A DNA stretch of 64,000 bases from a virus, in the IMG/VR virus record IMGVR_UViG_3300028920_000026, positions 1-64,000 of that record. The stretch is one strand, 5' to 3'. Shown piece by piece: positions 9,763 to 60,461 of the stretch (its first letter is position 1; every line of letters starts with the position of its first letter). The position numbers and the translations under genes are program-made. The notes below the pieces were generated by a model, which saw only the letters and a program-made list of their open reading frames with translations, had not been told where the DNA came from and did no database searches.

Positions 9763-9765
9763 GCG

Positions 9766-10221: not shown

Positions 10222-10432
10222 GTGTTGCTCCGTGTATCTAGTACTTATCGGTCCGACGGCCCTTCTGTTGTCCTGTATCCTTATTGTATGTCACCTCGGT
10301 GGCTTCTGCATCGGACGATTGTGACACTCTCCTGCCTGTACCCTCGCATCGTGGACACTCGCGGAGCTCTCCTCTTGCAAAATAACGCCCTGTTCCTTGA
10401 CACGAGAGATATTCATTTGGATCGTACACCTG

Positions 10433-10506: not shown

Positions 10507-10730
10507 GGAGTCTTAGTTTCCTGGACGAACTAGTAATGTGGACGAAAGGAAGCTGCATCCACGTCGTATGTTTACCGATCCAATCCTGTCGCCCTTCGCG
10601 AATGTTCTGATGCAAGGAACACTGATCACGTTCATTTCAATTGAGATCTCAATTGATTCATCGAACACTAGGCCCAATCAGAGCGCGATCCTTTCCAACA
10701 GGGCCTTTAGTTCTGCGTTCTTTGATACTG

Positions 10731-11407: not shown

Positions 11408-11670
11408 CTGTACGTACCCGCCAACCGCGAAAGCAGCGTCCTGCGCTGCATCATGAGGCCGATGAACGTCCTATCTTTTTCGACGCTTCCGTTGATGTAC
11501 GGTATCATCTCAACGTCAACGCGATCGAGCTCAGTAAGGATCGCCTTTTGATGCATTTTGCGCAGTCCCTCAAGGTCCATGCTGTGGGCAACAAGGGCCT
11601 TCTTGACGGCTAGCGCTCCTTGCGCATCGACGATCACTTCGTTGCCATCAATGTTCACAATGCTAAACAC
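11404..11670 (-). CDS. hypothetical protein (has a decayed paralog at 12.3-12.5 kb)
   Basis: 88-aa ORF 'MFSIVNIDGNEVIVDAQGALAVKKALVAHSMDLEGLRK...'. Confidence 0.45.
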   Translation of the reverse strand: MFSIVNIDGNEVIVDAQGALAVKKALVAHSMDLEGLRKMHQKAILTELDRVDVEMIPYINGSVEKDRTFIGLMMQRRTLLSRLAGTYR

Positions 11671-11682
11671 GGGTCGTTCCTT

Positions 11683-11961
11683 TCATTGAGACGGAAGCGC
11701 TGTGAGCTCTCCTTCGCGATCAGGACGTTCGTAGAGTGCGGTCTTTGCTGCGATGGCGCACCTAGTGCACTCCCGCGTGAGTTCTTCAATGCGTATCCTG
11801 GCACTGCGAAGTTCGCGAAGCCAGTCTGCGATCTGTGCCTCCTGCTCAGCGAGGGCATGTTGTCCTCCAGCCCTCAGGGTTGAGGCGTGTTCGTCAACGA
11901 GATCGATGACGTGTTCCAAGGTTCTAGGCTCTTTTGGCCCTTCGCACGGGTCTGTATCCAT
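11683..11961 (-). CDS. hypothetical protein
   Basis: 92-aa ORF. Confidence 0.4.
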   Translation of the reverse strand: MDTDPCEGPKEPRTLEHVIDLVDEHASTLRAGGQHALAEQEAQIADWLRELRSARIRIEELTRECTRCAIAAKTALYERPDREGELTALPSQ

Positions 11962-12314
11962 CCTTCTTTCTCAATTATACGGCAGCAAACGAACATCTAC
12001 ACACCTCACGTGCTGAGCTGGTTTGTTGATTACTATGTGAGAATTTTACAACTACACCTTTGTCTATGTAGTCATCAAAGCTTCCAGTCGGTTGCTTGTC
12101 GACATCGGTAATCGATGTCGCTTCGACCACATTTCCCTCAACATCGAACCAAAACACTGATGGACACATTTGACTTTGTTTATATGAATACCAGGCTCTA
12201 AATGTCATCTTATTCCTTCTTCGAGATCTAATCTATCTGTAAGTCCCAGCGAGCCGTGCAAGAAGAATCCTACGTTGTGACGTCAGGTCAGTAAATACGA
12301 CATCCTTTTGGGCG

Positions 12315-12479
12315 TCATCTATACGTCAATCCTGTTAAGTTCATTGATGATTGCAGTACGATGCTTTTTACGCAGGTAATCGAGGTCCATACTGTGAGCA
12401 ACAAGTACCTTTTGATGACCAACGCGCCACGCGCATCAACAACAACAATACTGCCATCAATGATTACTGTGCTGAACAT
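12315..12479 (-). pseudogene. frameshifted, truncated paralog of gene 11404..11670
   Basis: Reverse-strand translation gives 'MFSTVIIDGSIVVVDARGALVIKR' then, in a second frame, 'AHSMDLDYLRKKHRTAIINELNRIDV*'. This is colinear with 'MFSIVNIDGNEVIVDAQGALAVKK/ALVAHSMDLEGLRKMHQKAILTELDRVDV', with one apparent 1-nt indel between the two segments. Confidence 0.4.
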
Positions 12480-12537
12480 TTTTCTTCTTTGACCTGTACC
12501 TATTTTCTAGTTCAATGATACACCAACATGCGAACGT

Positions 12538-12849
12538 CTACACCTCACGCAGCACTTGGAACCATATTGAACGTATGGGATACTCTTCCCTTGGAATGCT
12601 TCGCTGCATCACTGAGAACGTCATCGTGTCTACTCGAGCAATGATTATTATCGGTGACGGAAACGCCTGCAACACATCGTGTTGTGTCTCATGAGCAGCA
12701 TAGACAACGTCACCTGGCTGCAGTTCCGTGATGAAGACACGCTCCAGCGTGTTGTACGGATGACAGACCTCATCCTCGGAGAACAGCGATCCCTGAGAGG
12801 CGTCCAGTTTTTCATTGACCCACTCTACGTTGAACTTCGTTCTGAGCAT
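12538..12849 (-). CDS. small PGD-family paralog
   Basis: 103 aa; 'ELQPGDVVYAAHE'. Confidence 0.4.
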   Translation of the reverse strand: MLRTKFNVEWVNEKLDASQGSLFSEDEVCHPYNTLERVFITELQPGDVVYAAHETQHDVLQAFPSPIIIIARVDTMTFSVMQRSIPREEYPIRSIWFQVLREV

Positions 12850-13115
12850 CTGGCTCCTTGCCGCGTCAAGAGCTTCATGTTCTTGTAACGTGGGACCTCA
12901 TCGATGTTGAAGAGAATGAATTCCTTGTCTATGCATACGACAACGACCGGGCGAGCGTTGCTTTCCATCCTGACGTTCCTGCCCGGTGCGAGACCGATGA
13001 TCCCGTTCCCATCGAGGTAGACGTCAAGCACAACGTCGCCCGGCCTGAGATCGCTGGTCGGCACATGCTTCAAGCCTACGGTTTTCGCCAGCGCGGTGCC
13101 GTTGCGAATCGTCAC
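12825..13115 (-). CDS. small PGD-family paralog (non-ATG or internal start)
   Basis: C-terminal 97 aa of ORF 12825..13412 carry 'LRPGDVVLDVYLDGNGIIGLAPG'. The N-terminal 100 aa of the long ORF are low-complexity and probably not coding. Confidence 0.35.
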   Translation of the reverse strand: MTIRNGTALAKTVGLKHVPTSDLRPGDVVLDVYLDGNGIIGLAPGRNVRMESNARPVVVVCIDKEFILFNIDEVPRYKNMKLLTRQGARCSERSST

Positions 13116-13212
13116 TTCTCTTCTTTGTCTGTCTTCACCTTGGCTTCCTGTACTCGCTTCAGCGCAGCCGCCTTGTCGGGCTTCTCGATGACGACGCTTG
13201 GTGCCTTGCCTG

Positions 13213-13779
13213 TCACACGGTGAACGCGGTTGGTCTCCCAATCGATCTTTCAGGATACGGATACGCTGTAACTTTACCCTCGACGTAGACTGGAACCTCT
13301 TTACCTTCAACGACACAGCGCACCCAGGTCGCGATGCTGTTCTTTGATGCGAAGATCCCGTTTGGCTCGGGTTGCTCGACGACGCCTTCCTGGATTGCCC
13401 GTCCATGGGCATTTTGGCCGAACGGCCAGTAGATGCGCGACTGAAGCTGCAGCGGGTTCGTCAGTGAGGTATCGTATGGAAGCGGGAAACCGATGCTCGG
13501 GCAGTCACCCTCGATCACACTGGTATCACCTCTCCAGACGGTGTGTGTCGCTACGCTCTCGTTCCGTGCCTTGTAAAGCTGGATTGTGATGTCGCGCTCG
13601 AGCGAGAAATCGAGGTGTGGAATCGGCTGAGCCATCTGGTAGTGCATTTGCTGCAATTGGACAGCCTCTTGGTCCTTCTGTTCTGACGATTTCTTCACTT
13701 CGCAGGCAATCAGTGCCAGTGCTAGGACGACGACGCCTAACGCTGCGATCGCTGTATTCGTTGTTCCCGTAGTTTTCAT
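13213..13779 (-). CDS. lipoprotein (candidate o-spanin / outer-membrane lysis partner)
   Basis: 188 aa with a signal peptide and lipobox 'ALALIAC'. Its start overlaps the stop of the upstream TM/coiled-coil gene (ATGA). Confidence 0.5.
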   Translation of the reverse strand: MKTTGTTNTAIAALGVVVLALALIACEVKKSSEQKDQEAVQLQQMHYQMAQPIPHLDFSLERDITIQLYKARNESVATHTVWRGDTSVIEGDCPSIGFPLPYDTSLTNPLQLQSRIYWPFGQNAHGRAIQEGVVEQPEPNGIFASKNSIATWVRCVVEGKEVPVYVEGKVTAYPYPERSIGRPTAFTV

Positions 13780-14156
13780 CGTAGCTTCAACCTTTCTCGC
13801 TCGAGCCTGTTCTCGAGCGCCTTCCTCTGGTTCCTGAGCGCTTCGACGACGTCAGCGTCGTCATTTGCCTTTGCGATCTCAGCATCAAGACGCGCAATGT
13901 CCTGCTCGAGCGTAGCGATCGCCTCCTTGCGAGCTTCCTGGTACTGGTGAGACTCTACGGCGACCTCACGGTCGATGCGTGCCTCGACAGACCTCAGCAG
14001 CCAACCGACGAGCGTGATTGCTGAGATGAGCGCGAACGCGCTTGCTGTTGATCCTCCAATCAGGGCCCACGATGGGCCATCGTCTTTAATCGACATTTCA
14101 TCACTCCTTCTGGATCTACGATCCTTACAAAGCCCGCGACTGGGCGACACGTCCAC
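13776..14156 (-). CDS. candidate i-spanin (N-terminal TM + periplasmic coiled coil)
   Basis: 126 aa; TM 'WALIGGSTASAFALISAITLVGWLL' followed by a heptad-rich 'EARKEAIATLEQDIARLDAEIAKANDDADVVEALRNQRKALENRLERERLKL'. Confidence 0.5.
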   Translation of the reverse strand: MDVSPSRGLCKDRRSRRSDEMSIKDDGPSWALIGGSTASAFALISAITLVGWLLRSVEARIDREVAVESHQYQEARKEAIATLEQDIARLDAEIAKANDDADVVEALRNQRKALENRLERERLKLR

Positions 14157-14695
14157 TTGTCATCAACCTTGTCACAATTTACGTTATCGACGAGGTCCCT
14201 TATGAGTGCTCGCCCAGCGCGAGCTCCTCCTCGTCCTTCTTAATGATCGTTACAATCATGATTCTTTTATGCATTTTCGTTGTTTCTCATCACATTGAAC
14301 GAATGATGTTCCCGTACATGCCAAGTTCCGACGAAACCGTTAGGAAACATGTACGTTATCGTCGCCCAGTTACGTGGTTTTTTGTTTCTACATGAATCAC
14401 AAGGCACCAAACGCTTTGTGTAAGGTTCTTGTAAAAGACAAACATGTCTTCTGGTAGAAGCTCCTGAACATGACAATCATTGATGATAAGCATTTACTCA
14501 CCCCTAATGGCCTGAAACGTATCCATGTTCTGATTTCTGCATTGGGATACAGGGACGTCAGCGCGTGACAGTCCTGAATTGAGGTTCTTGTGTGTATCAA
14601 CAAAAGCGTCCAACCCCTTTTCTTTTGTGTTGGATCTTACGCCCAATACAAGTCACCAGGAAGTAAATCTCTTGCAGCAATGTTCTCGAAGAACA

Positions 14696-15043
14696 TCAAC
14701 ACAGACCAAACCTCTTTGCAAGGTCTCGCCCTGCCTTTGATGTCTTGTCGTCGTGATAGAACCGTTGTCCGGAGAAGCAGTCGGTTGTGTAGACCTGCAT
14801 CACCCTGCCTTGACTAAACCCGTAGTTGAACCTGTAGAACCACATCGGATCCTTATCGACCCTGACAAGGAACCTCTTGAACCAGCCTTCCCGCCCGTAG
14901 TCGTCGAGCGTACCCATGTAGATCATTGTTGCACCCAACCAGTCAACCTTGACGATGCGACCTGACCAACTCTTGACAAAGACGAGCCCACGGACGAGCT
15001 CGATCTTCAACGACTGGGCATGTTTGAGGTACCTGTCTTCCAT
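14696..15043 (-). CDS. hypothetical protein
   Basis: 115-aa ORF; first of four head-to-tail minus-strand ORFs (14696-16025) with abutting coordinates. Confidence 0.4.
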   Translation of the reverse strand: MEDRYLKHAQSLKIELVRGLVFVKSWSGRIVKVDWLGATMIYMGTLDDYGREGWFKRFLVRVDKDPMWFYRFNYGFSQGRVMQVYTTDCFSGQRFYHDDKTSKAGRDLAKRFGLC

Positions 15044-15460
15044 CTATGGAACGTCGTTTGTATTGATTGGGCTGATCTTTCGCGGTGTCGGCGGGTTTTT
15101 GAGGCCCGAAGCCTCAGCATATTCGAGCAGCGCCCTGTATTCGATGTTTGCCGTCTCTGCGTCCGTATAGTGGATGTTTCCCTCGAGATCGGTGTACACC
15201 CACTGCTCGTCTTCGAGTTCAACGCCCGTGTTGTCCATGTAGTCGAAGCTGCATTCGGGTAGCGGAAGCGAGTCGATGTTGTACGCAACGAGAAGGAAGT
15301 GGCTCCCGTTCCTGAAGAACTTATGCAGATAGTAGCCGTCCCTGTCGAGGGTATTCAGTGCATCCTCAAGGCGTTTTGCAATCGCTGCGTTGTCATCCGT
15401 CCCGAGCACGCTTTCGACGCGCCATTCCTTCTTTTCTTTGTTCAACTTGTCTCCCTTCAA
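15044..15460 (-). CDS. hypothetical protein
   Basis: 138-aa ORF; its stop abuts the downstream start. Confidence 0.4.
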   Translation of the reverse strand: MKGDKLNKEKKEWRVESVLGTDDNAAIAKRLEDALNTLDRDGYYLHKFFRNGSHFLLVAYNIDSLPLPECSFDYMDNTGVELEDEQWVYTDLEGNIHYTDAETANIEYRALLEYAEASGLKNPPTPRKISPINTNDVP

Positions 15461-15775
15461 TCACTTTACCCTCATGAACTTCTCGTAGTTGATGTGAGCA
15501 TCCTCGTCGGCGCCGAGCGCGAGAATCCTACCAGATACAGACAGAAAAGTGACGTCAACATGGTCGATCACCCTATTCGGATCTGGCGGTGTCTTCACGC
15601 ACGACAGGACGAGGAACGGTCCGTCCCGGAAGTCCTTCCTGTCCCTTTTTGAGAAGGACGAGAAATCGATCATGTCGCCCGGCACGAACCTGCCAAACGC
15701 GATCGCGTTCAGAGTCGCAAAGACGTACGTGTCATCGCGGAACAGCGGCACGGGTCGGCTCAGGACGCGGTCCAC
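15461..15775 (-). CDS. small PGD-family paralog
   Basis: 104 aa; 'GRFVPGDMIDFSSF'. Confidence 0.4.
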   Translation of the reverse strand: MDRVLSRPVPLFRDDTYVFATLNAIAFGRFVPGDMIDFSSFSKRDRKDFRDGPFLVLSCVKTPPDPNRVIDHVDVTFLSVSGRILALGADEDAHINYEKFMRVK

Positions 15776-16025
15776 CAGGCTTCTGCTTCTTTACCTCGGG
15801 TTCTGGATCAATCTTCTGATCGTTTGGAACGAGTTTCGGAACGTCCGAGACGAGCTCGACCGTCGAAACATCAAACGACATCATGTCAAGCGGCTTGCCG
15901 TCCTTCAGCTCACGTGGAGCGAGGGTGACACGATCGCAGCCGGTCAACCACTGTGTCTTCGCCATCGCCACGCCGCTGAAGCCCGTGATAGTGTCCCTGT
16001 ACGTCATCCCAAGTTCGATCTTCAT
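15732..16025 (-). CDS. hypothetical protein
   Basis: 97-aa ORF with a Pro/Lys-rich C-terminus. Confidence 0.35.
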   Translation of the reverse strand: MKIELGMTYRDTITGFSGVAMAKTQWLTGCDRVTLAPRELKDGKPLDMMSFDVSTVELVSDVPKLVPNDQKIDPEPEVKKQKPGGPRPEPTRAAVPR

Positions 16026-16157
16026 GTTCGTTTCTCCAGTCTTCGAAGTTACATTAGTTGATGAATACTACACCCTATGAGAAATTCGTTGCCAGAAGCC
16101 AGATTGCCGTCTTTATGTATCGATGGTAAACGATTCGTTTGGTTTCTGAGAGCATTG

Positions 16158-16230
16158 TGTCCCCGGCTGGACTCGAACCAGCGGCACCCAATTTAGGAAA
16201 CTGGTGCTCTATCCACTGAGCTACGGAGAC
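16158..16230 (-). tRNA. tRNA-Arg (anticodon CCT)
   Basis: Reverse complement reads GTCTCCG-TA-GCTC-AGTGGATA-GAGC-A-CCAGT-TTCCTAA-ATTGG-GTGCC-GCTGG-TTCGAGT-CCAGC-CGGGGAC-A. Cloverleaf with anticodon CCU. Confidence 0.85.
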
Positions 16231-16325
16231 AGACGCCGCGGCCGGACATATCGACCTCTCGCTGCGGTCTATCAGTTTACACGTCGCTGTGCGTGTCGGC
16301 CGCGCGGCCAGACGAGCAACCCCTT

Positions 16326-16850
16326 TTACCTTACCTTCCTGGCCTCTCGAGCTGCACGGCGGCCCTCTCGCTCCCTTCTCAGGGCCTCGCGCTCGGCTTG
16401 AATGGTCTCCTTTGAGCGGTTCTTCGAACCCTTCGGGCGACCTCTCCTCTTTTTGGGGGCATTCGGATCCACGGGCTCGCGCTCGATGACCCTGCGGCGA
16501 CCGTTCCTGACCGACTGGCGTGTCTCGAGGAACCTCTCTGGGTTCACACCGCGTGGAGGAAACCTGAACTGAAACCCGTTGACGACTCCGACCGCCCAGT
16601 TTGACGATGCTAGGTACTCACGGACCGGATCCCACAGCTTCAGCTCGCCGTTGGGAAAAGGGTCAGCCAGGAGGCGGTAAACGCGGGTGTCGAGCCACGG
16701 GTTGTCTGCGAGGACGAGTGCTCGACGCTCAATGATGATGTAGTCGCCCTTCTTAGCGAGGAAGCCAACGCCGCTAGGCGTATCAGCCTCCCAGTCGATA
16801 GCATCGTCCAGGTACGCAATGTCAGGCTTGCTCGCCTCCCTGCGTGCCAT
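16326..16850 (-). CDS. AT-hook DNA-binding protein
   Basis: ORF 16326..17114 trimmed to the internal Met 'MARREASKP' to avoid a 210-nt overlap. Contains 'PKKRRGRPKGSKNR' (AT-hook) and a basic coiled tail. Confidence 0.45.
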   Translation of the reverse strand: MARREASKPDIAYLDDAIDWEADTPSGVGFLAKKGDYIIIERRALVLADNPWLDTRVYRLLADPFPNGELKLWDPVREYLASSNWAVGVVNGFQFRFPPRGVNPERFLETRQSVRNGRRRVIEREPVDPNAPKKRRGRPKGSKNRSKETIQAEREALRREREGRRAAREARKVR

Positions 16851-16902
16851 TGCAATGTTGGAGTCCTCGGTCGCCTTCGACCAGTCCTCATCTGGATCAG
16901 AC

Positions 16903-17451
16903 TCAATACACTGAGTCGACGAAGTGGTCGTGCTCTGATCGTCCTCCGAGTCCCATGTATCCTTCCTCAGAGCAGTTTGGATTGACGGGTCCATAGTCGT
17001 CGTCGTCTGTGGAGTCTGACTCAACTCCTTGTTTTCCATCTTCGGTTTCATCGGTTCCGCTTTCATCCTCCTTAATGTACACCACCTCAGAGTTGTCTGC
17101 ACCGAGCACCGCAAGCTTGTGAGCCGCTTGGGCGAACGAGACGGCTACTGTACGAACGTCGTTGATCACCAACACGATGGCGTCTCGTGTGTCGATCGAT
17201 TCACGAAAGAACTGGATCGACGTGTTCCTTAGCGAGGTCTTCTCTTTGTTGACAAACGAGCACCACGCCTTGCACATGCCTGAGTTTTTATCGATCTCTG
17301 TGTTGATGTTGAACGCATGGTCATTGATGATGAACGTTGACTTGTACTTGATGGGGTTGAACCGCATGCGCTTGAACACGATGCCTGCGACTTTGAACTC
17401 GTCAGGTGCTCCAGCAATGACCTGACGGTCGATATAATTCGTTATCGACAT
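16903..17451 (-). CDS. hypothetical protein with acidic C-terminal tail
   Basis: 182 aa; C-terminus 'EDESGTDETEDGKQGVESDSTDDDDYG'. Confidence 0.4.
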   Translation of the reverse strand: MSITNYIDRQVIAGAPDEFKVAGIVFKRMRFNPIKYKSTFIINDHAFNINTEIDKNSGMCKAWCSFVNKEKTSLRNTSIQFFRESIDTRDAIVLVINDVRTVAVSFAQAAHKLAVLGADNSEVVYIKEDESGTDETEDGKQGVESDSTDDDDYGPVNPNCSEEGYMGLGGRSEHDHFVDSVY

Positions 17452-17517
17452 CTTTCTTCTCCTACACTTGGGCGGTCACGCACTCACACGTGACCGCCTT
17501 TATGATGCTTGCCGTAT

Positions 17518-52057: not shown

Positions 52058-52064
52058 CCTCAAG

Positions 52065-53035: not shown

Positions 53036-53212
53036 GGAAACAATCACAGCAAGATCTACACGGTCTTCTGATGCCGAAAGGATCGGCGCACGCTGTATAC
53101 GGCACGCCCAAAGGGGGCCCCACTACTCGTCGAGAGGATCCTCGATGCATGATGGGGCCCCCTTTTTACGTCGAGGAGAGCACACAGAGGGCCCCCTTGA
53201 GAGCCCCCTATG
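53033..53212 (+). CDS. hypothetical small basic protein (59 aa)
   Basis: hairpin + 'CATACTAAGACCATGG'; its 3' end runs into the CCCCCTTGAGAG repeats. Confidence 0.35.
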
Positions 53213-53362: not shown

Positions 53363-53698
53363 TTATGCATAGCGTATCGTGAGGCGACGGTGTTGGAAGG
53401 CAGTGTTTTCAACCGTAGGTTCGTCCTCCTGTTCAGGTTTGATCCTCACGATGTGGTACCTAAAGAAGGGTTCCGCGTTGATGTGACGAAGGGCGCGGCC
53501 GCGCAGGTACGTGATCTCGATCCAGCCTCTCTTGCTGTGTTCGACCCCTATGATGAGGTAGAGGTAGCCTTTGAACTCGTCACCGATGAAGACGTCACCC
53601 GGTCTGATGTCAATCGCTTCGACGACTGCACCAAAGATCGTCCGATGATCACTCACGTTCACCACGCCCCAACACGAGCACGCTCTGGGTGGTGGCAA
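53363..53698 (-). CDS. small PGD-family paralog
   Basis: 'DIRPGDVFIGDEF'. Confidence 0.4.
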   Translation of the reverse strand: MPPPRACSCWGVVNVSDHRTIFGAVVEAIDIRPGDVFIGDEFKGYLYLIIGVEHSKRGWIEITYLRGRALRHINAEPFFRYHIVRIKPEQEDEPTVENTAFQHRRLTIRYA

Positions 53699-53816
53699 AC
53701 GCTTTGACCTTTGTCCTTCTGTATGATGAGAATCATTTCATCGAGTGATTCCACGCACACGTATTCACCGGACAGGCGACCGGCGATGTTCATGTTCCTG
53801 CTCCTCAGCGACGTCT

Positions 53817-54026
53817 TCACGTGCACCTCAATACGTGGTATAGCCCATCCTTCGAGTAGAGGACATCGTAGAACATTCCGTTGTGAAACGCTGTATACCA
53901 GCAGTCGTTTCCGTCGTACATCGAGCTGATCGCAACGATGAACCACTGCATGATCGCTACGTCGTCGGGTCCTGCCCACCCGACGACAAAGTCTCCTGGC
54001 AGGAAGTCACTTTCCTTGGCGATCAT
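53817..54026 (-). CDS. small PGD-family paralog
   Basis: 'DFLPGDFVVGWAG'. Confidence 0.4.
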   Translation of the reverse strand: MIAKESDFLPGDFVVGWAGPDDVAIMQWFIVAISSMYDGNDCWYTAFHNGMFYDVLYSKDGLYHVLRCT

Positions 54027-54331
54027 CGCTCCATCAACGGTTTGATCTTGTAAAAGATCGACTGGAAGCTCTTCTCTGTCCTCTTGGCCGCGGCCTGCGG
54101 GCTCTCACCCGTCCCGTTCGCCAGTGGGTATTCCTCGCTGCGGTCCTTGCTCGTCGGACAGATCGCCGCTGTGTACGTTCCGGGCTGCGTCCCTGGGACG
54201 ACGATCAGCAGCACGTGGTCGAGCCTGTACAGCTGCCTCCCAGCGTTGTCCGTCCTGTAGAACGGGAACGTCCTCTTGCAAAACTTCAGCTCGTCCGGCC
54301 AACCTTCCGGTGCCTTCGGTCTCTTGCTCAT
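54023..54331 (-). CDS. hypothetical protein
   Basis: Start taken at internal 'MSKRPKAPEGW'; its stop overlaps the next start. Confidence 0.4.
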   Translation of the reverse strand: MSKRPKAPEGWPDELKFCKRTFPFYRTDNAGRQLYRLDHVLLIVVPGTQPGTYTAAICPTSKDRSEEYPLANGTGESPQAAAKRTEKSFQSIFYKIKPLMER

Positions 54332-54528
54332 GTGTTTATCCTCTTGACCTTCTTGCCTGCGTCGAACCCGATCAGCTTCACCTTGCCCCTGTGCAGGTAC
54401 AGGATCGGCACAGTGTCGTCGGTGTCTGTGCGTCTTAGCGTCTCCTTCACAGCGAGGACAAGTATGGTCCTCCATGAATTTACCACGATCAGGTCTCCCG
54501 GGAGGCAGTCAGCGGCCAACATCCACAC
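54328..54528 (-). CDS. small PGD-family paralog
   Basis: 'DCLPGDLIVVNSW'. Confidence 0.4.
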   Translation of the reverse strand: MWMLAADCLPGDLIVVNSWRTILVLAVKETLRRTDTDDTVPILYLHRGKVKLIGFDAGKKVKRINT

Positions 54529-55540
54529 GTCCCACCAACCTCGGATGCGGCACGGTGTGCCTGTATGTGTTCACCGCGTCGGCAAGGACGTTGAACGCGG
54601 CCCTTGGATCCTCGCTCGGGTCTGCCCTGTCCCCAAGGGCCACGAGGTACATGTCCGACTCTGCGAGGTTCCACTCTCCCTGCATCAGCCGCAGGCGTCC
54701 CCTCTCGAGGAGCAGGTTCGGCACCCGAGAGTGCCAGATTGCCTCTTCAATGATGCAGAGTGCCTGCTGGACGTTTCTGAGGGCTCCCATCGCCCTCGCC
54801 GCCCTTAGCCGCCCACGCCAGTAGAAGTCTCCGCTCAAAGGTGGGACCTTCAGGAACGCCTTGGCGGCCTCCTCGAACCTGCTCCTGAAGAGGAGCTCGT
54901 CCCCGATGTAGTAGTCCCGGGCTGGGTCGTTCGTCTTCCACGCGTGGAGTATGCGGAGGTTCCTGTCGTCTTCGACCCCGCGGCCTCCGGACGACATGTG
55001 GACCACGCGGAGTGTTCCGGGAGGGACCTTGACGATCGCGGATGTCCGTGGTACGTCGAGGCACTCATGGACGGGCCGGATCCACTTGAACCCGTCGTCC
55101 TTGCGAACGATCCTGTCCCTGTAGAACGCCTGCAGGCACCGGGTTCTATCGCCGTTCCAGCTGTACTCGTAGAGGAGCGCTCCGACGACGGGCCTGGGCT
55201 CGTCTTCCCGCATCTCCTCCAACATGTCGACAACGTAGGGCAGCTTCTTAGGATCAGACAGGTCGTCGTCTGAATCGAACCAAAGCTGCCACGCCTTTGT
55301 TCCTGCGTCGTGTGCCAGAGTTCGCGCTGCACTGAAGTCGGATAGAAACCCATCGCTATCGAGCAGAAATGAGCCATCGATGAACACGTCTGCCCTGTCC
55401 TCCGCCAGCTCGCGCGTTCCGTCAAGTGAACCTGTATCAACAATGACGACTTCGTTTACGTATGGTTGGACCTGGTCGAGCATGTATGCGAGGTTCTCGC
55501 GGTCATCCCTTGCGATGACGCATAGCGACGTTTCGTTCAT
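54509..55540 (-). CDS. family-2 glycosyltransferase (GT-A fold) with helical C-terminal domain
   Basis: Start at 'MNETSLCVIARDD'; 'VVIVDTGSLDGT' (GT2 DxGSxDxT block); DxD 'WFDSDDDLSD'; C-terminal TPR-like helical region. Confidence 0.65.
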   Translation of the reverse strand: MNETSLCVIARDDRENLAYMLDQVQPYVNEVVIVDTGSLDGTRELAEDRADVFIDGSFLLDSDGFLSDFSAARTLAHDAGTKAWQLWFDSDDDLSDPKKLPYVVDMLEEMREDEPRPVVGALLYEYSWNGDRTRCLQAFYRDRIVRKDDGFKWIRPVHECLDVPRTSAIVKVPPGTLRVVHMSSGGRGVEDDRNLRILHAWKTNDPARDYYIGDELLFRSRFEEAAKAFLKVPPLSGDFYWRGRLRAARAMGALRNVQQALCIIEEAIWHSRVPNLLLERGRLRLMQGEWNLAESDMYLVALGDRADPSEDPRAAFNVLADAVNTYRHTVPHPRLVGRVDVGR

Positions 55541-55616
55541 TGTCCACACCCCACAAGGGGCATGAACACGATCCACACGCGTTTGCTTACGTATGCCATT
55601 GTATATGTCTTCTTTG

Positions 55617-55757
55617 TTATGGGCCCGTATCCGTGAGCCAGGTGATAGAAGCGTTACACTTGGTGATGCTGACGTTGGTGCACAACCACATGTGTTCCGC
55701 TAGAACATCACCTGGAACAACATCGCCTGCGTAGATCTTGGATGTTGGAACATTCAT
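55617..55757 (-). CDS. small PGD-family paralog (46 aa form)
   Basis: The C-terminus of ORF 55617..56135 carries 'MNVPTSKIYAGDVVPGDVLAEHMW'; the N-terminal part of that ORF is low-complexity and conflicts with plus-strand ORFs. Confidence 0.3.
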   Translation of the reverse strand: MNVPTSKIYAGDVVPGDVLAEHMWLCTNVSITKCNASITWLTDTGP

Positions 55758-56020
55758 TGCCTGACGACGACCATCATGTCTGTTGGATTGTACGTGATGC
55801 TTGCCGTCGTCCCGTCGCGTTCCAGCCACGTGATCCTGAACCTGATTTTGCTGCGTCTTCCAGCGCTTCCGGCGTTTACGATCGTGCGTTTTACAGAAAT
55901 CGCAAGCCGGTTGATTCCTGCTGCGAGGTCCCCTGGATGTGCGTCCTTTGCCTTGATGTCTACCCTTCCAACAGTAAACCTTTCGCGTGTCGCCTACACC
56001 CGTGTATGGTATCCTGACCC

Positions 56021-56416
56021 ATGCAGACGTTCCTTCCGTTTCCCGACTTCCGGCGTTCTCTCCGGACCCTCGACTACCGTCGCCTCGGAAAGCAGCGCGT
56101 CGAAGGCATGCAGCTGCTCCAGGGTTCGTGGTCAAACCATCCTGCTTCGAAGATGTGGCGTGGGTACGAGTTCCAGCTCGCGGAGTACACGCTGCTTGCG
56201 TGCATCGAGTGGGTGAAGCTAGGCTACAACGATTCCTGCTTCAACAAGGTCATGGCGATTCAGGACACGCTCGAGGATACGAGCCTGCCTCCTTGGTTCG
56301 GGAACGCTGCGTTTCATCGTTCGCACCAGAGCAACCTCGTTCGCAAGATGCCCGAACGCTATGCGTCCCTGTTCTCGGGCGTTCCGGATGATCTGCCTTA
56401 CGTGTGGCCTGTCTGA
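56021..56416 (+). CDS. conserved hypothetical protein ('MQTFLPFPDF...LGKQRVE' family)
   Basis: 131 aa; an N-terminal block 'MQTFLPFPDFRRSLRTLDYRRLGKQRVEGMQLLQ' that I recall from a widespread bacterial/phage family, but I cannot name the family with confidence. Confidence 0.45.
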   Translation: MQTFLPFPDFRRSLRTLDYRRLGKQRVEGMQLLQGSWSNHPASKMWRGYEFQLAEYTLLACIEWVKLGYNDSCFNKVMAIQDTLEDTSLPPWFGNAAFHRSHQSNLVRKMPERYASLFSGVPDDLPYVWPV

Positions 56417-56628
56417 TCGGGCAACGCCTTGATGATTTCAAGCCTCGTCCTCCTCAATGACGAGAACGGGACCAACCGCATACCTACGAGGAGCGTCAGG
56501 TCGACGACCTTGACGTGTGACCTATACACGACGCAGAGCACCAACCCCATGTAGATCTTTGGGCCGTCCTGGATCCTGACGAGCATGTCTCCGGGCTCGA
56601 CGTCGGTTATCGGGATGTTCTTAATCAC
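56398..56628 (-). CDS. small PGD-family paralog
   Basis: 'DVEPGDMLVRIQD'. Confidence 0.4.
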   Translation of the reverse strand: MIKNIPITDVEPGDMLVRIQDGPKIYMGLVLCVVYRSHVKVVDLTLLVGMRLVPFSSLRRTRLEIIKALPDQTGHT

Positions 56629-56863
56629 AAGTCGAAAACACCCTTACGAAGGTGTTTGACGCGAAGAGCGTCCTTTGTACGCTCCCGTCAGTCCGCAGCC
56701 ATAGGACGCTGACGCTGTTGCTTGGACCGTCCACCGTTCCATTGGTGAGCGCCAGCTCCCCCGACGAGAACAACCCGACCCTTAGGTCGCCGGGCAGGAT
56801 CTCCTTCGGTTCCTTGTACGTCGTCCCCTGGAGGAAATCGTCGTCCTCGTCACGTGTGCTCAT
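56621..56863 (-). CDS. small PGD-family paralog
   Basis: 'EILPGDLRVGLFS'. Confidence 0.4.
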   Translation of the reverse strand: MSTRDEDDDFLQGTTYKEPKEILPGDLRVGLFSSGELALTNGTVDGPSNSVSVLWLRTDGSVQRTLFASNTFVRVFSTCD

Positions 56864-57115
56864 CGTTCCATCTGTTGACGGTGTCTCCTCCTAGGAACTG
56901 GCACTCGATCAGGCCAGAACCTATCGTGAGGAGCGATACCCTGATCCTGTTTGGTCTTGGTCGCTTCACGCTGACGACGAGCGAGGGCAACACGAACTAG
57001 AAGACGGTGTTCGTTGCCGTGATCAGGTCACCCGGAACGAGCATGTATGCTCTTGTAGCGTGGAACATAATCAGCTATACTTCAGCGTCTCGTCGTCAGC
57101 GACTTCTGCCTATAC

Positions 57116-57379
57116 TCAGTACCTGAATGGGTACCTGCTCCCTTGGGTCCTGCGCTGTTGGACCTTTGCTCGGACAAACCCGACCGCCTTGCACCCGAGA
57201 TGGATAGCCTCAGCCGGCCAGAGCACGAATGCCAGGATGAAGGTTGCGTAGTACATGAGCGTTTCGCGCAGATCTAGGGCGGGCGTCCTAGGATTTGTGA
57301 ATTGGTACCCTACGATTGCCGCCTTGAGGGTGCCCACGATGAGTGCGCCCGTGATGTAGATCTGTATCAACTGTTCCAT
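57116..57379 (-). CDS. small membrane protein (2 TM)
   Basis: 87 aa; 'IYITGALIVGTLKAAIVGY' and 'YYATFILAFVLWPAEAI'. Confidence 0.4.
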   Translation of the reverse strand: MEQLIQIYITGALIVGTLKAAIVGYQFTNPRTPALDLRETLMYYATFILAFVLWPAEAIHLGCKAVGFVRAKVQQRRTQGSRYPFRY

Positions 57380-57414
57380 CCGAAGATCCTACCCTCGCCA
57401 TGCGTAGAATGCAC

Positions 57415-57678
57415 CTATTGTTCACACCTGATGACTTCGACGTTATCGTAGGCTCCGTGACGCATCGAAACAACCCTACCACGGCAGGTGAGCCACACGA
57501 TCTTAACGGTCGACCTTGCGGGTGCGTCAAACGCCATCGTTTCTAAGACGTACCTTGCGGATGATACGGCGAGAAAGCAACCGATATTTTTGGCCATGTC
57601 ACCGGGCTGTACGTGGGCGAACTTTATCAACACGCAGACCTCAGCACGTAGTACGTCGGCGTAGGGTTGAAGTGACAC
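57415..57678 (-). CDS. small PGD-family paralog
   Basis: 'HVQPGDMAKNIGC'. Confidence 0.35.
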   Translation of the reverse strand: MSLQPYADVLRAEVCVLIKFAHVQPGDMAKNIGCFLAVSSARYVLETMAFDAPARSTVKIVWLTCRGRVVSMRHGAYDNVEVIRCEQ

Positions 57679-57839
57679 TGTGTGACTGTCCCATCGTCCA
57701 TCAGGACGACGTACGTCCCCTGTCGTGGATGGAAACCTCGCGGGAGTTCGATGTACCCTTCTGCTGGGAGGCTGGTGAACGTCATGATGAAATCGGCCTC
57801 GCGCGTGACCTTGTCACGCGCGAACGTACCCGTCGACAA
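57627..57839 (-). CDS. PGD-family-like small protein (degenerate motif)
   Basis: 'FHPRQGTYVVLMDDG'. Confidence 0.3.
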   Translation of the reverse strand: MSTGTFARDKVTREADFIMTFTSLPAEGYIELPRGFHPRQGTYVVLMDDGTVTQCHFNPTPTYYVLRSAC

Positions 57840-57861
57840 TGCGACAACGAGCGCCGTGGTG

Positions 57862-58059
57862 TCACTTCAACCCGGCGATGAACTGTCCGGACACGATGTC
57901 TCTGAGCCTCATTGTCGTCGTATCATACTCTTCCATCTTGTCGATCCTAATCCTACCACATGACTTCTGCACGTACGATGTCACGGGTAGTCCTTCTCCA
58001 ATGTCGTCTTTAAAGATGATTACGTTTCCAGGGACTATGAACCTTCCTCGCTTCTCCAC
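57862..58059 (-). CDS. small PGD-family paralog
   Basis: 'FIVPGNVIIFKDD'. Confidence 0.4.
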   Translation of the reverse strand: MEKRGRFIVPGNVIIFKDDIGEGLPVTSYVQKSCGRIRIDKMEEYDTTTMRLRDIVSGQFIAGLK

Positions 58060-58307
58060 CCGCTTCCCTTTATCATCGACACCTTCGCGTGTGACGCTAT
58101 GCTGCTATGCGCCAACACGCCGTTCGGCCAGATCGCGAAGATGCGCGTTCGCATTGTGTTTATTCGTTCGATCGCAATGACAAGCGCAAGGCTGTTCGAG
58201 TGCGCCGGTATCCAGATGTCTCCTGGTTCGAGCTCAAATGCGTAGTCGAGGAACTTGCCCATGATGTTTAGCTCGGCCGTGTCGGCGTCATGATCCAAAA
58301 AACCCAT
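58035..58307 (-). CDS. small PGD-family paralog
   Basis: 'ELEPGDIWIPAHS'. Confidence 0.4.
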   Translation of the reverse strand: MGFLDHDADTAELNIMGKFLDYAFELEPGDIWIPAHSNSLALVIAIERINTMRTRIFAIWPNGVLAHSSIASHAKVSMIKGSGWRSEEGS

Positions 58308-58492
58308 GCGATCGGTATTGTCGCCGTCTTTACGGCTCCGTTGCCAAGCAACACGACGTCAACGACCTTTTCGTGATTGTTGTCTCCCCAGCGTATTTTG
58401 GATTTCGAGAGCAGGAGCGATGCAACGCCTGATTCTTCGATGATTACGTCACCGGGGCAGGCTATCTCGATCCTCATGCGATCGACGCTCAC
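58268..58492 (-). CDS. small PGD-family paralog
   Basis: 'IACPGDVIIEESG'. Confidence 0.4.
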   Translation of the reverse strand: MSVDRMRIEIACPGDVIIEESGVASLLLSKSKIRWGDNNHEKVVDVVLLGNGAVKTATIPIAWVFWIMTPTRPS

Positions 58493-58628
58493 CTGATCAC
58501 CTCGTACTCTGTTTTCGCACCGAGCTGCATTGCCTTATTCCTCGCCGAGTACTTCGCGTTTTTGATGCGACCGTTTACAAGAAAAGGTCAGATCATCCTG
58601 TACATCAGCGGATTGGCTTTGTTGGACG

Positions 58629-58862
58629 TCACAGCCTGTGTTCCTTTACAACTTTGTACTTCCTGTCTCCGAAGATGAGCGCCCTCATGAGTTGTCCCTT
58701 TTCAAGGTGGACGATGATGCGCGCGTCTGGATTATTGTGGTATATCGCAGGATCGGTGAACACGGCAACGATCAGCTTTGTCGTAGGTACAGCATTACCC
58801 TGGCAGAAGTAGATCGTATCACCAGGAACGAGCTCATCTCCTCTTATCGCCACCGTTTGCAA
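58629..58862 (-). CDS. small PGD-family paralog
   Basis: 'ELVPGDTIYFCQG'. Confidence 0.4.
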   Translation of the reverse strand: MQTVAIRGDELVPGDTIYFCQGNAVPTTKLIVAVFTDPAIYHNNPDARIIVHLEKGQLMRALIFGDRKYKVVKEHRL

Positions 58863-59106
58863 TCACGAGCCTCTTTCTTCCCAACCACCCAGGGACAATG
58901 AACAACACGTCCTGCGTTCTGTTGAATTTCCACACAACGCCGTTTTCGAGCACCAAGAATGTATCGACGATCATCTCATCGTCGACGTTGTATTGGAACT
59001 TTGCAATGAGTAAGAGCGGGCGCAACGACGAATTAAAAGCGAAGAAGATATCACCTGGTACAAGTAATCTTGAACTGATGAATTCCCACTCGTTGGTCGA
59101 AAACAT
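58834..59106 (-). CDS. small PGD-family paralog
   Basis: 'LLVPGDIFFAFNS'. Confidence 0.4.
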   Translation of the reverse strand: MFSTNEWEFISSRLLVPGDIFFAFNSSLRPLLLIAKFQYNVDDEMIVDTFLVLENGVVWKFNRTQDVLFIVPGWLGRKRLVIANGGDKRR

Positions 59107-59274
59107 ATGCTCATCCTACACTGAACCTGCATCGAGTGCATTCGTTCTCACCGTGCATGATAAAGGTGTTGCTGCTCCTCTTTGGCGTCCTATTACTCAC
59201 GTCCAATCATCATCGGGTTGTTCGAGCCCATCGTGTCTGATGATGTAAATGGGCTCGTCATCAGAGAACGAAAA

Positions 59275-59505
59275 TCAAGAGACACATCCGTTTTTTAATA
59301 GAAAGCCAACGATACTGTATTCTTCGGTGTAGTTGCCTGGTCCATACATCACTTTGTGTGTTTCAAAGTACACCGTCAATACGAACTCGAAGATAGAATT
59401 CGTTCTGATGCAATCACCAGGACACAGCTCCCTCGCCTTGACGCGGCTCTCGGTCGGCCAGGTGATCATGGTTTCATAATCGAGGTGCGAACTGATCAGT
59501 TTCAA
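59275..59505 (-). CDS. small PGD-family paralog
   Basis: 'ELCPGDCIRTNSI'. Confidence 0.4.
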   Translation of the reverse strand: MKLISSHLDYETMITWPTESRVKARELCPGDCIRTNSIFEFVLTVYFETHKVMYGPGNYTEEYSIVGFLLKNGCVS

Positions 59506-59695
59506 AGTTGTACTTTTCGATCACGCCGGACGGGAAGAACAGCAGGAACTCGATGCATTCGATTGAGTAGCTGCTGACGATTCCATCGTCGTCTACTTCG
59601 CAGATGAACCCTTCTGCTGCAACGCCAAGCGACAGCCCTCTGAACGTACCTATGACGTCACCAGGTATAATCTCACTTGCGAAGGCGTTGTTCAC
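59474..59695 (-). CDS. small PGD-family paralog
   Basis: 'EIIPGDVIGTFRG'. Confidence 0.4.
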   Translation of the reverse strand: MNNAFASEIIPGDVIGTFRGLSLGVAAEGFICEVDDDGIVSSYSIECIEFLLFFPSGVIEKYNFETDQFAPRL

Positions 59696-60003
59696 TGTAC
59701 GATGATCCTTTCGACGACAAACGTCCCGACATGCGTTTCTCTTGCGATCCTCCCACGCCAGATGTATGTTATGTTGACATAACCGTCATCAAGCAGGATG
59801 ATTTCAATAATGAATTGGATCTCTCCTTCGTTGATGACCGCGTCACCTGGATGCAGGTCACTCGTTTTGACAGTACTCAGCCTGCTTTTCAACTTTGAAT
59901 TCCGCATTGGAAGTGAATGTTGACGTCCTGACGGCACCCGAGCTCGTAAGCCGCGTAAGCGTGATTGACTTCGGCATGCTTCCGAGGTTGTGTCGCATCC
60001 CAA
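59692..60003 (-). CDS. small PGD-family paralog
   Basis: 'DLHPGDAVINEGE'. Confidence 0.4.
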   Translation of the reverse strand: MGCDTTSEACRSQSRLRGLRARVPSGRQHSLPMRNSKLKSRLSTVKTSDLHPGDAVINEGEIQFIIEIILLDDGYVNITYIWRGRIARETHVGTFVVERIIVQ

Positions 60004-60136
60004 GCACGAGCGACCTTCGTGTGTTTGCGGCGCTGAACATCGTCCCGCCCGTCAGGAGGACATCACCCGGTACGATCTCGTGCAGCTCCTTTATGTGGAA
60101 TGATACGTCTATCACGCAGCAATCATACACCAACAC
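59858..60136 (-). CDS. small PGD-family paralog
   Basis: 'EIVPGDVLLTGGT'. Confidence 0.4.
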   Translation of the reverse strand: MLVYDCCVIDVSFHIKELHEIVPGDVLLTGGTMFSAANTRRSLVLGMRHNLGSMPKSITLTRLTSSGAVRTSTFTSNAEFKVEKQAEYCQNE

Positions 60137-60461
60137 GGGGCGTTCTACACACTATGCACATGATGTGTATATGCCGTACAATCGTCGCATGGGTTTCATT
60201 GAGACGGCGTTCGTGCGGGGGTTCGTTTGAATTTCTTATCGCATGGATCATCTGTGCTGTTCTCGGTGTCCTGTTCGACGACGAGGAGCTGGAGGCATCA
60301 ACGTCAGAACGATGATCTCGAACATGTGGCCGATCGTAACCAGCGTCCTCGCTGTTTACACGCATCGAGTGATCACTGTGAAATAAATCAGCACTTCGGT
60401 TGTATACTGTGCATCACGGTGTAACAATCTAGGCACTTATCAGCAACAGGAGGAAATCGAT

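What the first reader, a model, noticed from the sequence alone, without database searches (positions are those of the whole stretch)
53363..60136. Tandem array II of the PGD family: ~20 consecutive 65-105-aa paralogs with drifting composition
From 53.3 to 60.1 kb nearly every minus-strand ORF carries h-x-PGD-h-h 10-25 residues from its N-terminus: IRPGDVFIG, FLPGDFVVG, CLPGDLIVV, VEPGDMLVR, ILPGDLRVG, IVPGNVIIF, LEPGDIWIP, ACPGDVIIE, LVPGDTIYF, LVPGDIFFA, LCPGDCIRT, IIPGDVIGT, LHPGDAVIN, IVPGDVLLT. The run is interrupted only by a GT2 glycosyltransferase, an MQTFLP-family gene and a small membrane protein. GC falls from about 58% to about 45% toward the right end, and sequence outside the motif is almost unique to each copy. 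This is the signature of birth-and-death evolution or diversifying selection.
Basis: seen in the sequence. Interest (0 to 1): 0.8.

Follow-up and report, generated by a model that had tools for sequence, protein, structure and literature searches.

The report
Phage array of tiny barrel-protein paralogs
A 6.8-kb stretch of a huge (at least 331 kb) uncultured phage genome carries about 19 back-to-back genes for very divergent copies of one tiny beta-barrel protein that matches no described family; the array is real and coding, but its function is unknown and expansions of this general kind are already known in giant phages.

Summary
On the minus strand of 53363-60136, 18 small ORFs carry h-x-PG[DN]-h-h 7-24 residues from the N-terminus and 32-79 residues before the stop. 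The plus strand has none, Markov simulations give 0.07, and 759 kb of control metagenomic DNA gives none. One further ORF fits the family without the motif, and 12 more members lie at 4-26 kb.

All 30 candidates score best in their own frame under a codon model trained on the window's long genes. The P, G and D codons use every synonymous codon, so conservation is at protein level, not DNA level.

Pfam and PHROGs give no match. A profile search of 1.84 billion proteins found one outside member, in another lake phage.

Copies are 13-16% identical on average (best pairs 29-31%), and neighbours are no closer than distant copies. Three copies look decayed.

Best reading: an old lineage-specific expansion of a binding scaffold with variable loops, probably host-takeover proteins. 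That functional step is inference only.

The parts
59858..60136 (-). Family member (IVPGDVLLT), 92 aa, first gene of the array next to the divergent intergenic region
   Evidence: Motif; own frame best under codon model; in alignments A1/A2; called as a gene in Logan contig L001
59692..59907 (-). Family member (LHPGDAVIN), 71 aa (66 aa if started at 59892)
   Evidence: leave-one-out HMM score 20.2 bits; 31% identical to 53363-53665
59474..59695 (-). Family member (IIPGDVIGT), 73 aa, pI 4.1; 4-nt start/stop overlap with upstream gene
59275..59469 (-). Family member (LCPGDCIRT), 64 aa, ends just after the L-x-x-G turn; not called by the automatic gene caller
   Evidence: (15.9 bits)
58834..59106 (-). 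Family member (LVPGDIFFA), 90 aa
   Evidence: identical to P0002
58629..58862 (-). Family member (LVPGDTIYF), 77 aa; the copy whose structure was predicted
58268..58492 (-). Family member (ACPGDVIIE), 74 aa
   Evidence: (16.9 bits)
58035..58262 (-). Family member (LEPGDIWIP), 75 aa (87-90 aa with upstream starts)
   Evidence: P0003
57862..58059 (-). Outlier member (IVPGNVIIF), 65 aa; membership weakest
   Evidence: Motif variant PGN; leave-one-out only 3.3 bits; AlphaFold model poor, pLDDT 60; coding frame best
57627..57839 (-). 70-aa ORF without PGD but with the C-terminal family pattern (YVVLMDDGTV...YYVLR); probable degenerate member
   Evidence: Sequence; own frame best; HMM not significant
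57415..57633 (-). Family member (VQPGDMAKN), 72 aa (87 aa from 57678)
   Evidence: 29% identical to 55754-55993, pairwise E 5e-7
57116..57379 (-). Interrupting 87-aa hydrophobic (membrane-like) protein, not a family member
   Evidence: Translation; no Pfam match
56850..57068 (-). Family member (LVPGDLITA) broken by an in-frame TAG at 56997-56999; the read-through translation has all family blocks; probable pseudogene
   Evidence: TAG is an ordinary stop for 7 family members, so recoding is unlikely
56621..56863 (-). Family member (ILPGDLRVG), 80 aa, pI 4.4
56398..56628 (-). Family member (VEPGDMLVR), 76 aa
56021..56416 (+). Opposite-strand pyrimidine-dimer DNA glycosylase-like gene (MQTFLP...) that splits the array
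   Evidence: Pfam Pyr_excise E 9.5e-15
55754..55993 (-). Family member (AHPGDLAAG), 79 codons, no ATG/GTG/TTG upstream of the motif; possibly beheaded by the adjacent opposite-strand gene
   Evidence: (E 1.3e-4 before it was added to the model)
55617..55757 (-). Truncated member (VVPGDVLAE), 46 aa, stops at the L-x-x-G turn; ATGA overlap with the upstream copy
54509..55576 (-). Interrupting family-2 glycosyltransferase
   Evidence: Pfam Glycos_transf_2 E 2.9e-7; homologues in other uncultured contigs
54328..54522 (-). Family member (CLPGDLIVV), 64 aa
54023..54331 (-). 102-aa non-family ORF inside the array
   Evidence: no Pfam match
53817..54026 (-). Family member (FLPGDFVVG), 69 aa, pI 4.2
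53363..53665 (-). Last family member (IRPGDVFIG), 100 aa with a C-terminal extension
53110..53165 (.). 25-nt inverted repeat with A-run and T-run flanks between the convergent plus-strand block and the end of the array; likely bidirectional terminator
   Evidence: I2
60137..60461 (.). 325-nt divergent intergenic region from which the array (leftward) and the plus-strand genes (rightward) start; promoter inferred, not shown
   Evidence: only weak sigma-70-like matches
3972..26093 (.). Minus strand: 4217-4489, 9003-9323, 9478-9765 (PGM), 12538-12849, 12825-13115, 14637-14696 (truncated), 15461-15751, 22459-22656, 22918-23190, 23181-23507 (PGT), 24753-25010, 25863-26093. Plus strand: 3972-4235

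Best explanation
Array II is a densely packed, probably operon-like run of about 19 paralogous genes. There are 18 with the motif and 1 without; 3 appear defective. Together with 12-13 dispersed copies at 4-26 kb they form an old lineage-specific expansion of a previously undescribed single-domain protein (typically 64-100 aa) in a huge phage.

Each protein is a six-stranded small beta-barrel of the SH3/KOW type, with the topology of the N-terminal domain of EF-P/eIF5A. The only conserved positions are turn formers (the P-G-D before strand 2 and the Gly of the L-x-x-G hairpin) and alternating hydrophobic core residues. What is conserved is therefore the scaffold, not an active site or a common ligand surface.

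The loop after the PGD strand carries 0-17 inserted residues and the long hairpin tip 0-21. Surface charge varies widely (pI 4.1-12.0).

Most likely mechanism (inferred, not shown): the copies are non-enzymatic binding modules. Each would recognise a different partner through its variable loops and surface, and they would be made together as accessory host-takeover or counter-defence proteins.

My sub-confidences: real coding paralog family 0.95; small beta-barrel fold 0.85; ancient rather than recent expansion 0.8; binder repertoire for host takeover or anti-defence 0.3.
For: Real and coding:
- Motif enrichment is 18 versus 0.07 expected, with zero hits in 759 kb of control loci.
- 30 of 30 candidates score highest in their own frame, out of six, under a codon model trained on the window's long genes, with GC3>GC1>GC2.
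- 12 array II members (59275-59469 was not called) were called independently by the gene caller on a Logan contig.
- The P, G and D codons use all synonymous codons at genome-like frequencies, so selection acts on the protein.

Homology beyond the motif:
- Leave-one-out HMM scores are positive for all 25 copies tested, 3-25 bits.
- With the motif masked, pairwise scores exceed shuffled controls (p 1e-7).
- The best pairs are 29-31% identical over 62-69 residues.
- The same five sequence blocks recur in the alignments.

Fold:
- AlphaFold2 on the 28-paralog alignment gave pLDDT 91.3 and pTM 0.76, all-beta.
- Foldseek on PDB agrees.
- BFVD holds many 60-80-aa uncharacterised phage proteins with TM 0.7-0.8.

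No catalytic or known family:
- No Pfam or PHROGs match.
- The PDB profile search returned only motif-level chance hits.

Old expansion:
- Mean identity is 13-16%.
- There is no adjacency effect, p=0.87.
- There are no DNA repeats beyond the motif.

Operon-like packing:
- Most junctions overlap by 4-50 nt or have gaps of at most 47 nt.
- The array is bounded by a 325-nt divergent region and a hairpin terminator.

Variable loops and charge.

Precedent: phage G carries about 35 copies of a zinc ribbon (PMC7824862).
Against: - Function is entirely inferred. No partner, no expression data and no informative neighbour exist; nearly all surrounding genes lack any Pfam match.
- The confident fold rests on one model driven by the paralog alignment. 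The outlier copy 57862-58059 modelled poorly (pLDDT 60).
- Leave-one-out scores are low, and most of that signal comes from the motif used to pick the members.
- A variable surface is also what neutral drift of dispensable proteins would produce, and three decayed copies show that constraint on individual copies is weak.
- No promoter was demonstrated.
- The opposite-strand glycosylase gene interrupts any single transcript.
Confidence: 0.6

Rival explanations
1. Translation or RNA-directed function. The proteins would be stand-alone mimics or derivatives of the EF-P/eIF5A N-terminal KOW-like domain. They would dock on ribosomes, tRNA or RNA and modulate host or phage translation.
Against: Profile-profile comparison with an EF-P domain I alignment gives probability 0.4%. 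The hairpin tip that carries the essential modified Lys/Arg (KPGKG) in EF-P is the most variable part here, with no conserved basic residue. Domains II and III are absent. pI ranges from 4.1 to 12.0, so there is no shared nucleic-acid-binding charge. Foldseek E-values are weak, about 1e-2.
Confidence: 0.07
2. Active genomic accordion under diversifying selection. Copies would be continually born by tandem duplication and driven apart by an arms race with host defences.
For: Tandem arrangement, extreme divergence and three decayed copies. Variable loops sit on a fixed scaffold. Accordion-like expansions are known in poxviruses and giant viruses (my own knowledge).
Against: There are no young duplicates; the best pair is 31% identical. 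There is no adjacency effect (p 0.87) and no separation between arrays. There are no DNA repeats and synonymous sites are saturated. Two assemblies are essentially identical across the array, with 2 SNPs in 11 kb. dN/dS cannot be estimated.
Confidence: 0.2
3. Artefact. The ORFs would be non-coding, and the motif would come from a repeated DNA element or from compositional bias.
For: Many copies start with GTG or TTG, about half lack a visible Shine-Dalgarno sequence, and several overlap. The family has almost no database relatives.
Against: The codon model picks the annotated frame in 30 of 30 cases. The motif codons are synonymously randomised. The motif is strand- and frame-specific, 18 versus 0. 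The fold prediction is confident. An independent member, P0027, scored 36 bits in another phage of different GC. The controls are empty.
Confidence: 0.02
4. Virion-associated proteins. The copies would be packaged internal or ejection proteins, or capsid or tail decoration modules.
Against: There are no structural genes nearby. No signal or propeptide motifs are shared. Heterogeneous charge and decayed copies argue against stoichiometric structural roles.
Confidence: 0.08

Closest known systems
N-terminal KOW-like domain of EF-P / eIF5A (Pfam EFP_N, PF08207)
   Different: No detectable sequence relationship (hhalign probability 0.4%). No KPGKG loop with a modifiable Lys/Arg. No OB domains II/III. 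Present in about 30 copies rather than as a single essential gene.
Generic SH3/KOW/Tudor small beta-barrels (for example the NusG and L24 KOW motif, and the PcrA/UvrD Tudor domain)
   Different: No Pfam KOW or SH3 match for any of the 28 members. There is an extra N-terminal strand, and the loops are long and variable.
Uncharacterised 60-80-aa phage proteins in BFVD (for example A0A6H0X4E4 of Klebsiella phage KpS8 and A0A1W6DXP1 of Salmonella phage LPST10)
   Same: Best structural matches overall (TM 0.69-0.78, E about 1e-3), the same size, phage-encoded, function unknown.
   Different: Only 8-20% identity. No sequence-level hit in GenBank phages. Whether they carry the PGD motif, and their copy number per genome, could not be checked here.
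Lineage-specific expansion of about 35 zinc-ribbon proteins in Bacillus megaphage G (Iyer et al. 2021, PMC7824862)
   Same: The same phenomenon: a giant phage carries tens of copies of one tiny domain of unknown role.
   Different: A different fold (zinc ribbon versus beta-barrel), a different phage lineage, and no shared sequence.
Multigene families and 'genomic accordions' of poxviruses and giant viruses (my own knowledge)
   Same: Tandem paralog arrays in large viral genomes, with decaying copies.
   Different: Those expansions include recent, similar copies and copy-number variation. Here every copy is ancient and there is no copy-number evidence.

Membership tests
EF-P / eIF5A family | N-terminal KOW-like six-stranded barrel | tested here: met
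EF-P / eIF5A family | Significant match to the family sequence profile | tested here: not met
   Pfam EFP_N matched 1 of 28 members, at E 0.12; hhalign against the EF-P domain I alignment gave probability 0.4%; the PDB profile search returned no EF-P
EF-P / eIF5A family | Conserved basic residue (KPGKG or Arg) at the hairpin tip for post-translational modification | tested here: not met
   The equivalent loop is the most variable region, with 0-21 inserted residues and no conserved K/R
EF-P / eIF5A family | Additional OB-fold domain(s) II/III | tested here: not met
   The proteins are 46-108 aa single domains
KOW motif proteins (PF00467) | Match to the KOW profile | tested here: not met
   No KOW hit for any of 28 members at E<=1
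Tandem paralog array / lineage-specific expansion | Three or more homologous genes adjacent on one strand | tested here: met
   18 motif-bearing ORFs in 6.8 kb, all on the minus strand
Tandem paralog array / lineage-specific expansion | Homology supported beyond a short motif | tested here: met
   Motif-masked pair scores exceed shuffles, p 1e-7; best pairs E 5e-7 and 4e-6; shared predicted fold blocks. The signal is weak for some copies and for the outlier
Tandem paralog array / lineage-specific expansion | Absent or few copies in related genomes | tested here: inconclusive
   No members within 10 kb of the MVP homologue in 13 IMG/VR loci, nor in 100 kb of LR756500/LR756501. However, these relatives are distant (37-43% MVP identity) and the profile has little power for untrained members
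Actively duplicating 'accordion' family | Recent, similar copies; neighbours more alike than distant copies | tested here: not met
   Maximum identity 31%; adjacency permutation p 0.87; no DNA repeats
Diversity-generating retroelement target | Template/variable DNA repeat pair and a reverse transcriptase | tested here: not met
   No long direct repeats in 52.5-61 kb; no reverse transcriptase among the ORFs scanned against Pfam
Stop-codon-recoded phage genes (TAG reassignment) | TAG avoided as a terminator and common in-frame | tested here: not met
   TAG terminates 7 of 27 family ORFs and 23 of 80 ORFs of at least 150 aa; no suppressor tRNA in the window; one in-frame TAG noted among the family copies

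The most novel reading that the evidence does not exclude
The roughly 30 copies form a hard-wired repertoire of mini-binders. One rigid EF-P-domain-I-like barrel would display two hypervariable loops, and each copy would neutralise a different host defence or housekeeping protein. This would be a phage counterpart of scaffold-based recognition repertoires, and a natural library of 7-10 kDa binding proteins. A rarer variant of this reading is that some copies occupy the ribosomal EF-P site.
Probability: 0.12. Interest if true: 0.75.

Novelty: new member of a known kind. Interest (0 to 1): 0.42.

Why it matters
Huge phages devote much of their extra DNA to small ORFs that nobody can name. This work shows that about 30 such ORFs in one 64-kb stretch are one family with one fold. 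That turns about 8 kb of 'dark matter' into a single testable object.

If the copies are binders with different targets, the array would be a compact catalogue of host-takeover or anti-defence specificities and a source of small stable scaffolds. If they are dispensable, the array documents how giant phage genomes inflate.

The family is absent from Pfam and PHROGs. It shows how structure prediction from within-genome paralogs alone can classify orphan genes.

Tried and rejected
- Nucleotide search of the array against GenBank phages: no match.
- tblastn of a member against the same collection: nothing below E=3.
- PHROGs and Pfam scans of members: nothing significant.
- Word-indexed search of 5.8 billion proteins with the family alignment: only self hits.
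- Exhaustive profile search of 1.84 billion representatives:
  - It returned self hits.
  - It found one genuine outside member, P0027.
  - It also listed repeat proteins (9x NlpC/P60, WD40, ankyrin) that merely accumulate motif-level matches.
- Search with P0027 alone: only itself.
- Relatives sought through the embedded glycosyltransferase:
  - IMG/VR: none.
  - GTDB genomes: none.
  - Metagenomes: 80 loci, no family member.
  - L008 (GT2 40% identical): one weak candidate.
  - L022 (44% identical): a tandem pair with A-G-D-L-V and similar blocks by eye, but hhalign probability is 0.5%, so it is not claimed.
- Relatives sought through the vault-like protein: 13 IMG/VR loci and two 50-kb pieces of LR756500/LR756501, no members.
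- TAG recoding as an explanation for the interrupted copy: rejected.
- EF-P homology: rejected at sequence level.
- Promoter and terminator scans inside the array were close to the shuffle-based expectation (promoter-like 10 found versus 4.5 expected; terminator-like 8 versus 5.4) and gave no convincing minus-strand sites.
- Literature searches found no description of this family.
- The AlphaFold DB fold library was not available.

Full report
**Source of the window**

The window is 100% identical to parts of ENA contig k141_1101516 (331,213 bp, ERZ27252253). It differs from Logan contigs of SRR8554435 by 2 mismatches in 11 kb.

It encodes these recognisable proteins:
- an 881-aa major-vault-protein-like protein
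- a GroEL-like chaperonin
- UvdE
- a pyrimidine-dimer glycosylase
- a family-2 glycosyltransferase

It also carries two tRNAs.

In GenBank phages the vault-like protein matches only the 462-735-kb 'huge phages' LR756500, LR756501 and LR756503, at about 40% identity. It also matches 13 IMG/VR contigs at 35-43%. The window therefore belongs to an uncultured huge phage. Most other ORFs have no Pfam match.

**Check of the observation**

A context-aware regex hits 18 times on the minus strand of 53363-60136 and never on the plus strand. 500 Markov simulations gave a mean of 0.07 and a maximum of 2.

As an external control, 80 metagenomic loci (759 kb, 7,693 ORFs) gave no regex hit in small ORFs and no family-HMM hit at E<=1.

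The motif lies 7-24 residues from the start. It lies 48-79 residues before the stop in intact copies.

GC declines from about 0.58-0.64 to 0.44-0.52 towards the right end.

The array is bounded on the right by a 325-nt divergent intergenic region (60137-60461). On the left it is bounded by a 25-nt inverted repeat flanked by A and T runs (53110-53165).

**Are the ORFs genes?**

A codon log-odds model trained on 13 long genes of the window ranks the proposed frame first of six for all 30 candidates. GC3>GC1>GC2 holds in nearly all of them.

Across 28 copies the Pro, Gly and Asp codons of the motif use every synonymous codon in genome-like proportions. The only DNA repeats in the region are the 14-24 nt that encode the motif, at 75-85% identity. 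The motif is therefore kept by selection on protein, not by a DNA element, recent duplication or gene conversion.

Most gene junctions overlap by 4-50 nt or are separated by at most 47 nt, including ATGA and GTGA overlaps. An automatic gene caller had already called 12 of the copies.

**One family, one fold**

MAFFT alignments (A1, A2) show a common architecture in addition to PGD:
- a hydrophobic strand (h-h-V-h-h)
- a strand ending in L-x-x-G
- a terminal h-x-V-h-R/K strand

Mean identity is only 13-16%. Even so, leave-one-out HMMs score every held-out copy positively, 3-25 bits. Motif-masked pair scores exceed shuffles (p 1e-7). The best pairs reach 29-31% identity, with pairwise E of 5e-7 and 4e-6.

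AlphaFold2 on the 28-paralog alignment gave a confident all-beta model for 58629-58862: pLDDT 91.3, pTM 0.76, six strands.

Fold comparisons:
- Foldseek agrees, with TM 0.60-0.67.
- In the viral structure library the best matches are 60-80-aa uncharacterised proteins of many phages, with TM 0.69-0.78.

The weakest copy (57862-58059, PGN) modelled poorly (pLDDT 60), so its membership is less secure.

**Not EF-P**

The following results argue against EF-P membership:
- Pfam EFP_N appears once, at E 0.12.
- A profile search of PDB sequences finds only PDZ and methyltransferase 'L-R-P-G-D-x-I/V' look-alikes at E>0.4.
- hhalign against an EF-P domain I alignment, built from sequences verified, gives probability 0.4%.
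- The hairpin that bears the modified Lys/Arg in EF-P is here the most variable loop.
- The proteins consist of a single domain.

The resemblance is at fold level only.

**Distribution**

Pfam and PHROGs have no match. GenBank phages have none.

The exhaustive profile search of 1.84 billion representatives returned three kinds of hit:
- the training copies
- repeat proteins that accumulate motif matches
- one genuine outsider, P0027 (70 aa, E 6e-4)

P0027 lies on a 3.8-kb contig of 43% GC from other metagenomes; its Logan run SRR11849211 is cited in a paper on Swedish waters. That contig carries a second copy at its edge.

Untrained members score only 3-25 bits, so this search has little power. 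The family may be more widespread than it appears.

No members were found in any of these:
- within 10 kb of the vault-like gene in 13 distant relatives
- in 100 kb of LR756500/LR756501
- around 80 glycosyltransferase relatives

Two leads remain open. Contig L022 has a tandem pair with A-G-D-L-V and similar blocks, but the statistics do not support membership.

**Evolutionary mode**

Adjacent copies are no more alike than random pairs (p 0.87). Array II copies are no closer to each other than to the 4-26 kb copies. No young duplicates exist.

Three copies are damaged:
- 56850-57068 has an in-frame TAG. TAG is a normal terminator here and there is no suppressor tRNA.
- 55617-55757 is cut to 46 aa.
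- 55754-55993 has no canonical start. It abuts the opposite-strand glycosylase gene, which may have beheaded it; this is an inference.

The expansion is therefore old and slowly eroding. Diversifying selection cannot be tested at this divergence.

**Mechanism**

Shown: this is a coding paralog family with a conserved scaffold. The conserved residues are turn and core formers. Loops vary by 0-17 and 0-21 inserted residues, and pI spans 4.1-12.0. No enzymatic signature is present.

Inferred: the copies are non-catalytic binding modules with different partners. They would be made together from tightly packed transcription units and would serve host takeover or counter-defence. I put this functional step at about 0.3.

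Rivals are an EF-P-site or RNA role (0.07), an active accordion under an arms race (0.2), virion proteins (0.08) and artefact (0.02).

**Novelty**

The protein family is undescribed, but the phenomenon is known. Phage G carries about 35 zinc-ribbon copies (PMC7824862), and small barrels are common orphan proteins in phages. This is a new member of a known kind, of moderate interest.

Noticed in passing
window 35271-53035, + strand (14 sites, e.g. 50157, 50615, 51670, 52068, 52579, 53023): The 13-mer ATACTAAGACCAT occurs 14 times with at most 2 mismatches, all on the plus strand; 0.57 are expected by chance. Its final AT plus the next G form the ATG of plus-strand ORFs (for example 52079 and 50626). 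At least two of the copies (52579, 53023) follow a GC-rich hairpin (for example GTCCTCCCC-TTCG-GGGGAGGAC at 52999-53022). It looks like a phage-specific promoter or initiation signal, possibly for leaderless mRNAs, used in the 34-53 kb block but not in the PGD arrays.
   Followed up: partly
window 17518-20163 (-): An 881-aa protein has major-vault-protein shoulder and repeat domains (Pfam E 1.7e-26). It is conserved at 35-43% identity in the 462-735-kb huge phages LR756500/LR756501 and in 13 IMG/VR contigs of very different GC (0.24-0.65).
   Followed up: partly
window 56997-56999 within 56850-57068 (-): An in-frame TAG interrupts an otherwise complete family member. TAG is a normal stop elsewhere and no suppressor tRNA is present, so this is a probable nonsense pseudogene.
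   Followed up: yes
window 55994-56416: A pyrimidine-dimer glycosylase-like gene sits on the opposite strand inside the array. Its 3' end overlaps member 56398-56628 by 19 nt, and its start lies 25 nt from a family copy that has lost its start codon. This suggests a later insertion that split the operon.
   Followed up: partly
window 53110-53238: A 25-nt inverted repeat (AAAGGGGGCCCC...GGGGCCCCCTTT) lies between convergent gene blocks. It is followed by a tandem 24-nt repeat, GCCCCCTTGAGAGCCCCCT x2, at 53191-53238.
   Followed up: no
window 411-3524 (+); 10432-10506 and 16157-16230 (-): The window carries a UvdE UV endonuclease and a GroEL-like chaperonin (42-44% identical to bacterial and phage GroL). 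It also carries tRNA-Met(CAT) and tRNA-Arg(CCT) among the small minus-strand genes.
   Followed up: no
L004 1-243 and 2955-3167 (JGI 3300037042 contig, 3.8 kb, GC 0.43): A different phage-like contig carries two family members, VEPGDFII and IVPGDYFA. The first lies at the contig edge where the automatic caller had placed two opposite-strand ORFs.
   Followed up: partly
Contig of P0029 (NCBI GCA_041443045.1, 40.9 kb); no DNA held: Upstream of a glycosyltransferase 46% identical to the one inside array II lie 17 consecutive co-directional genes of 65-100 aa. This may be a homologous array in a related phage.
   Followed up: no
L022 27-581 (JGI 3300051214 contig, GC 0.36): Two tandem 82-88-aa paralogs (38% identical) lie next to RtcB and a GT2 44% identical to the window's. 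They have an h-x-A-G-D-L-V start and family-like strand blocks, but hhalign against the family is not significant.
   Followed up: yes
window 57270 and 59767: These are the only two differences from the Logan assembly across 11 kb. One is L37P in the small membrane protein and the other is a synonymous change in member 59692-59907.
   Followed up: yes
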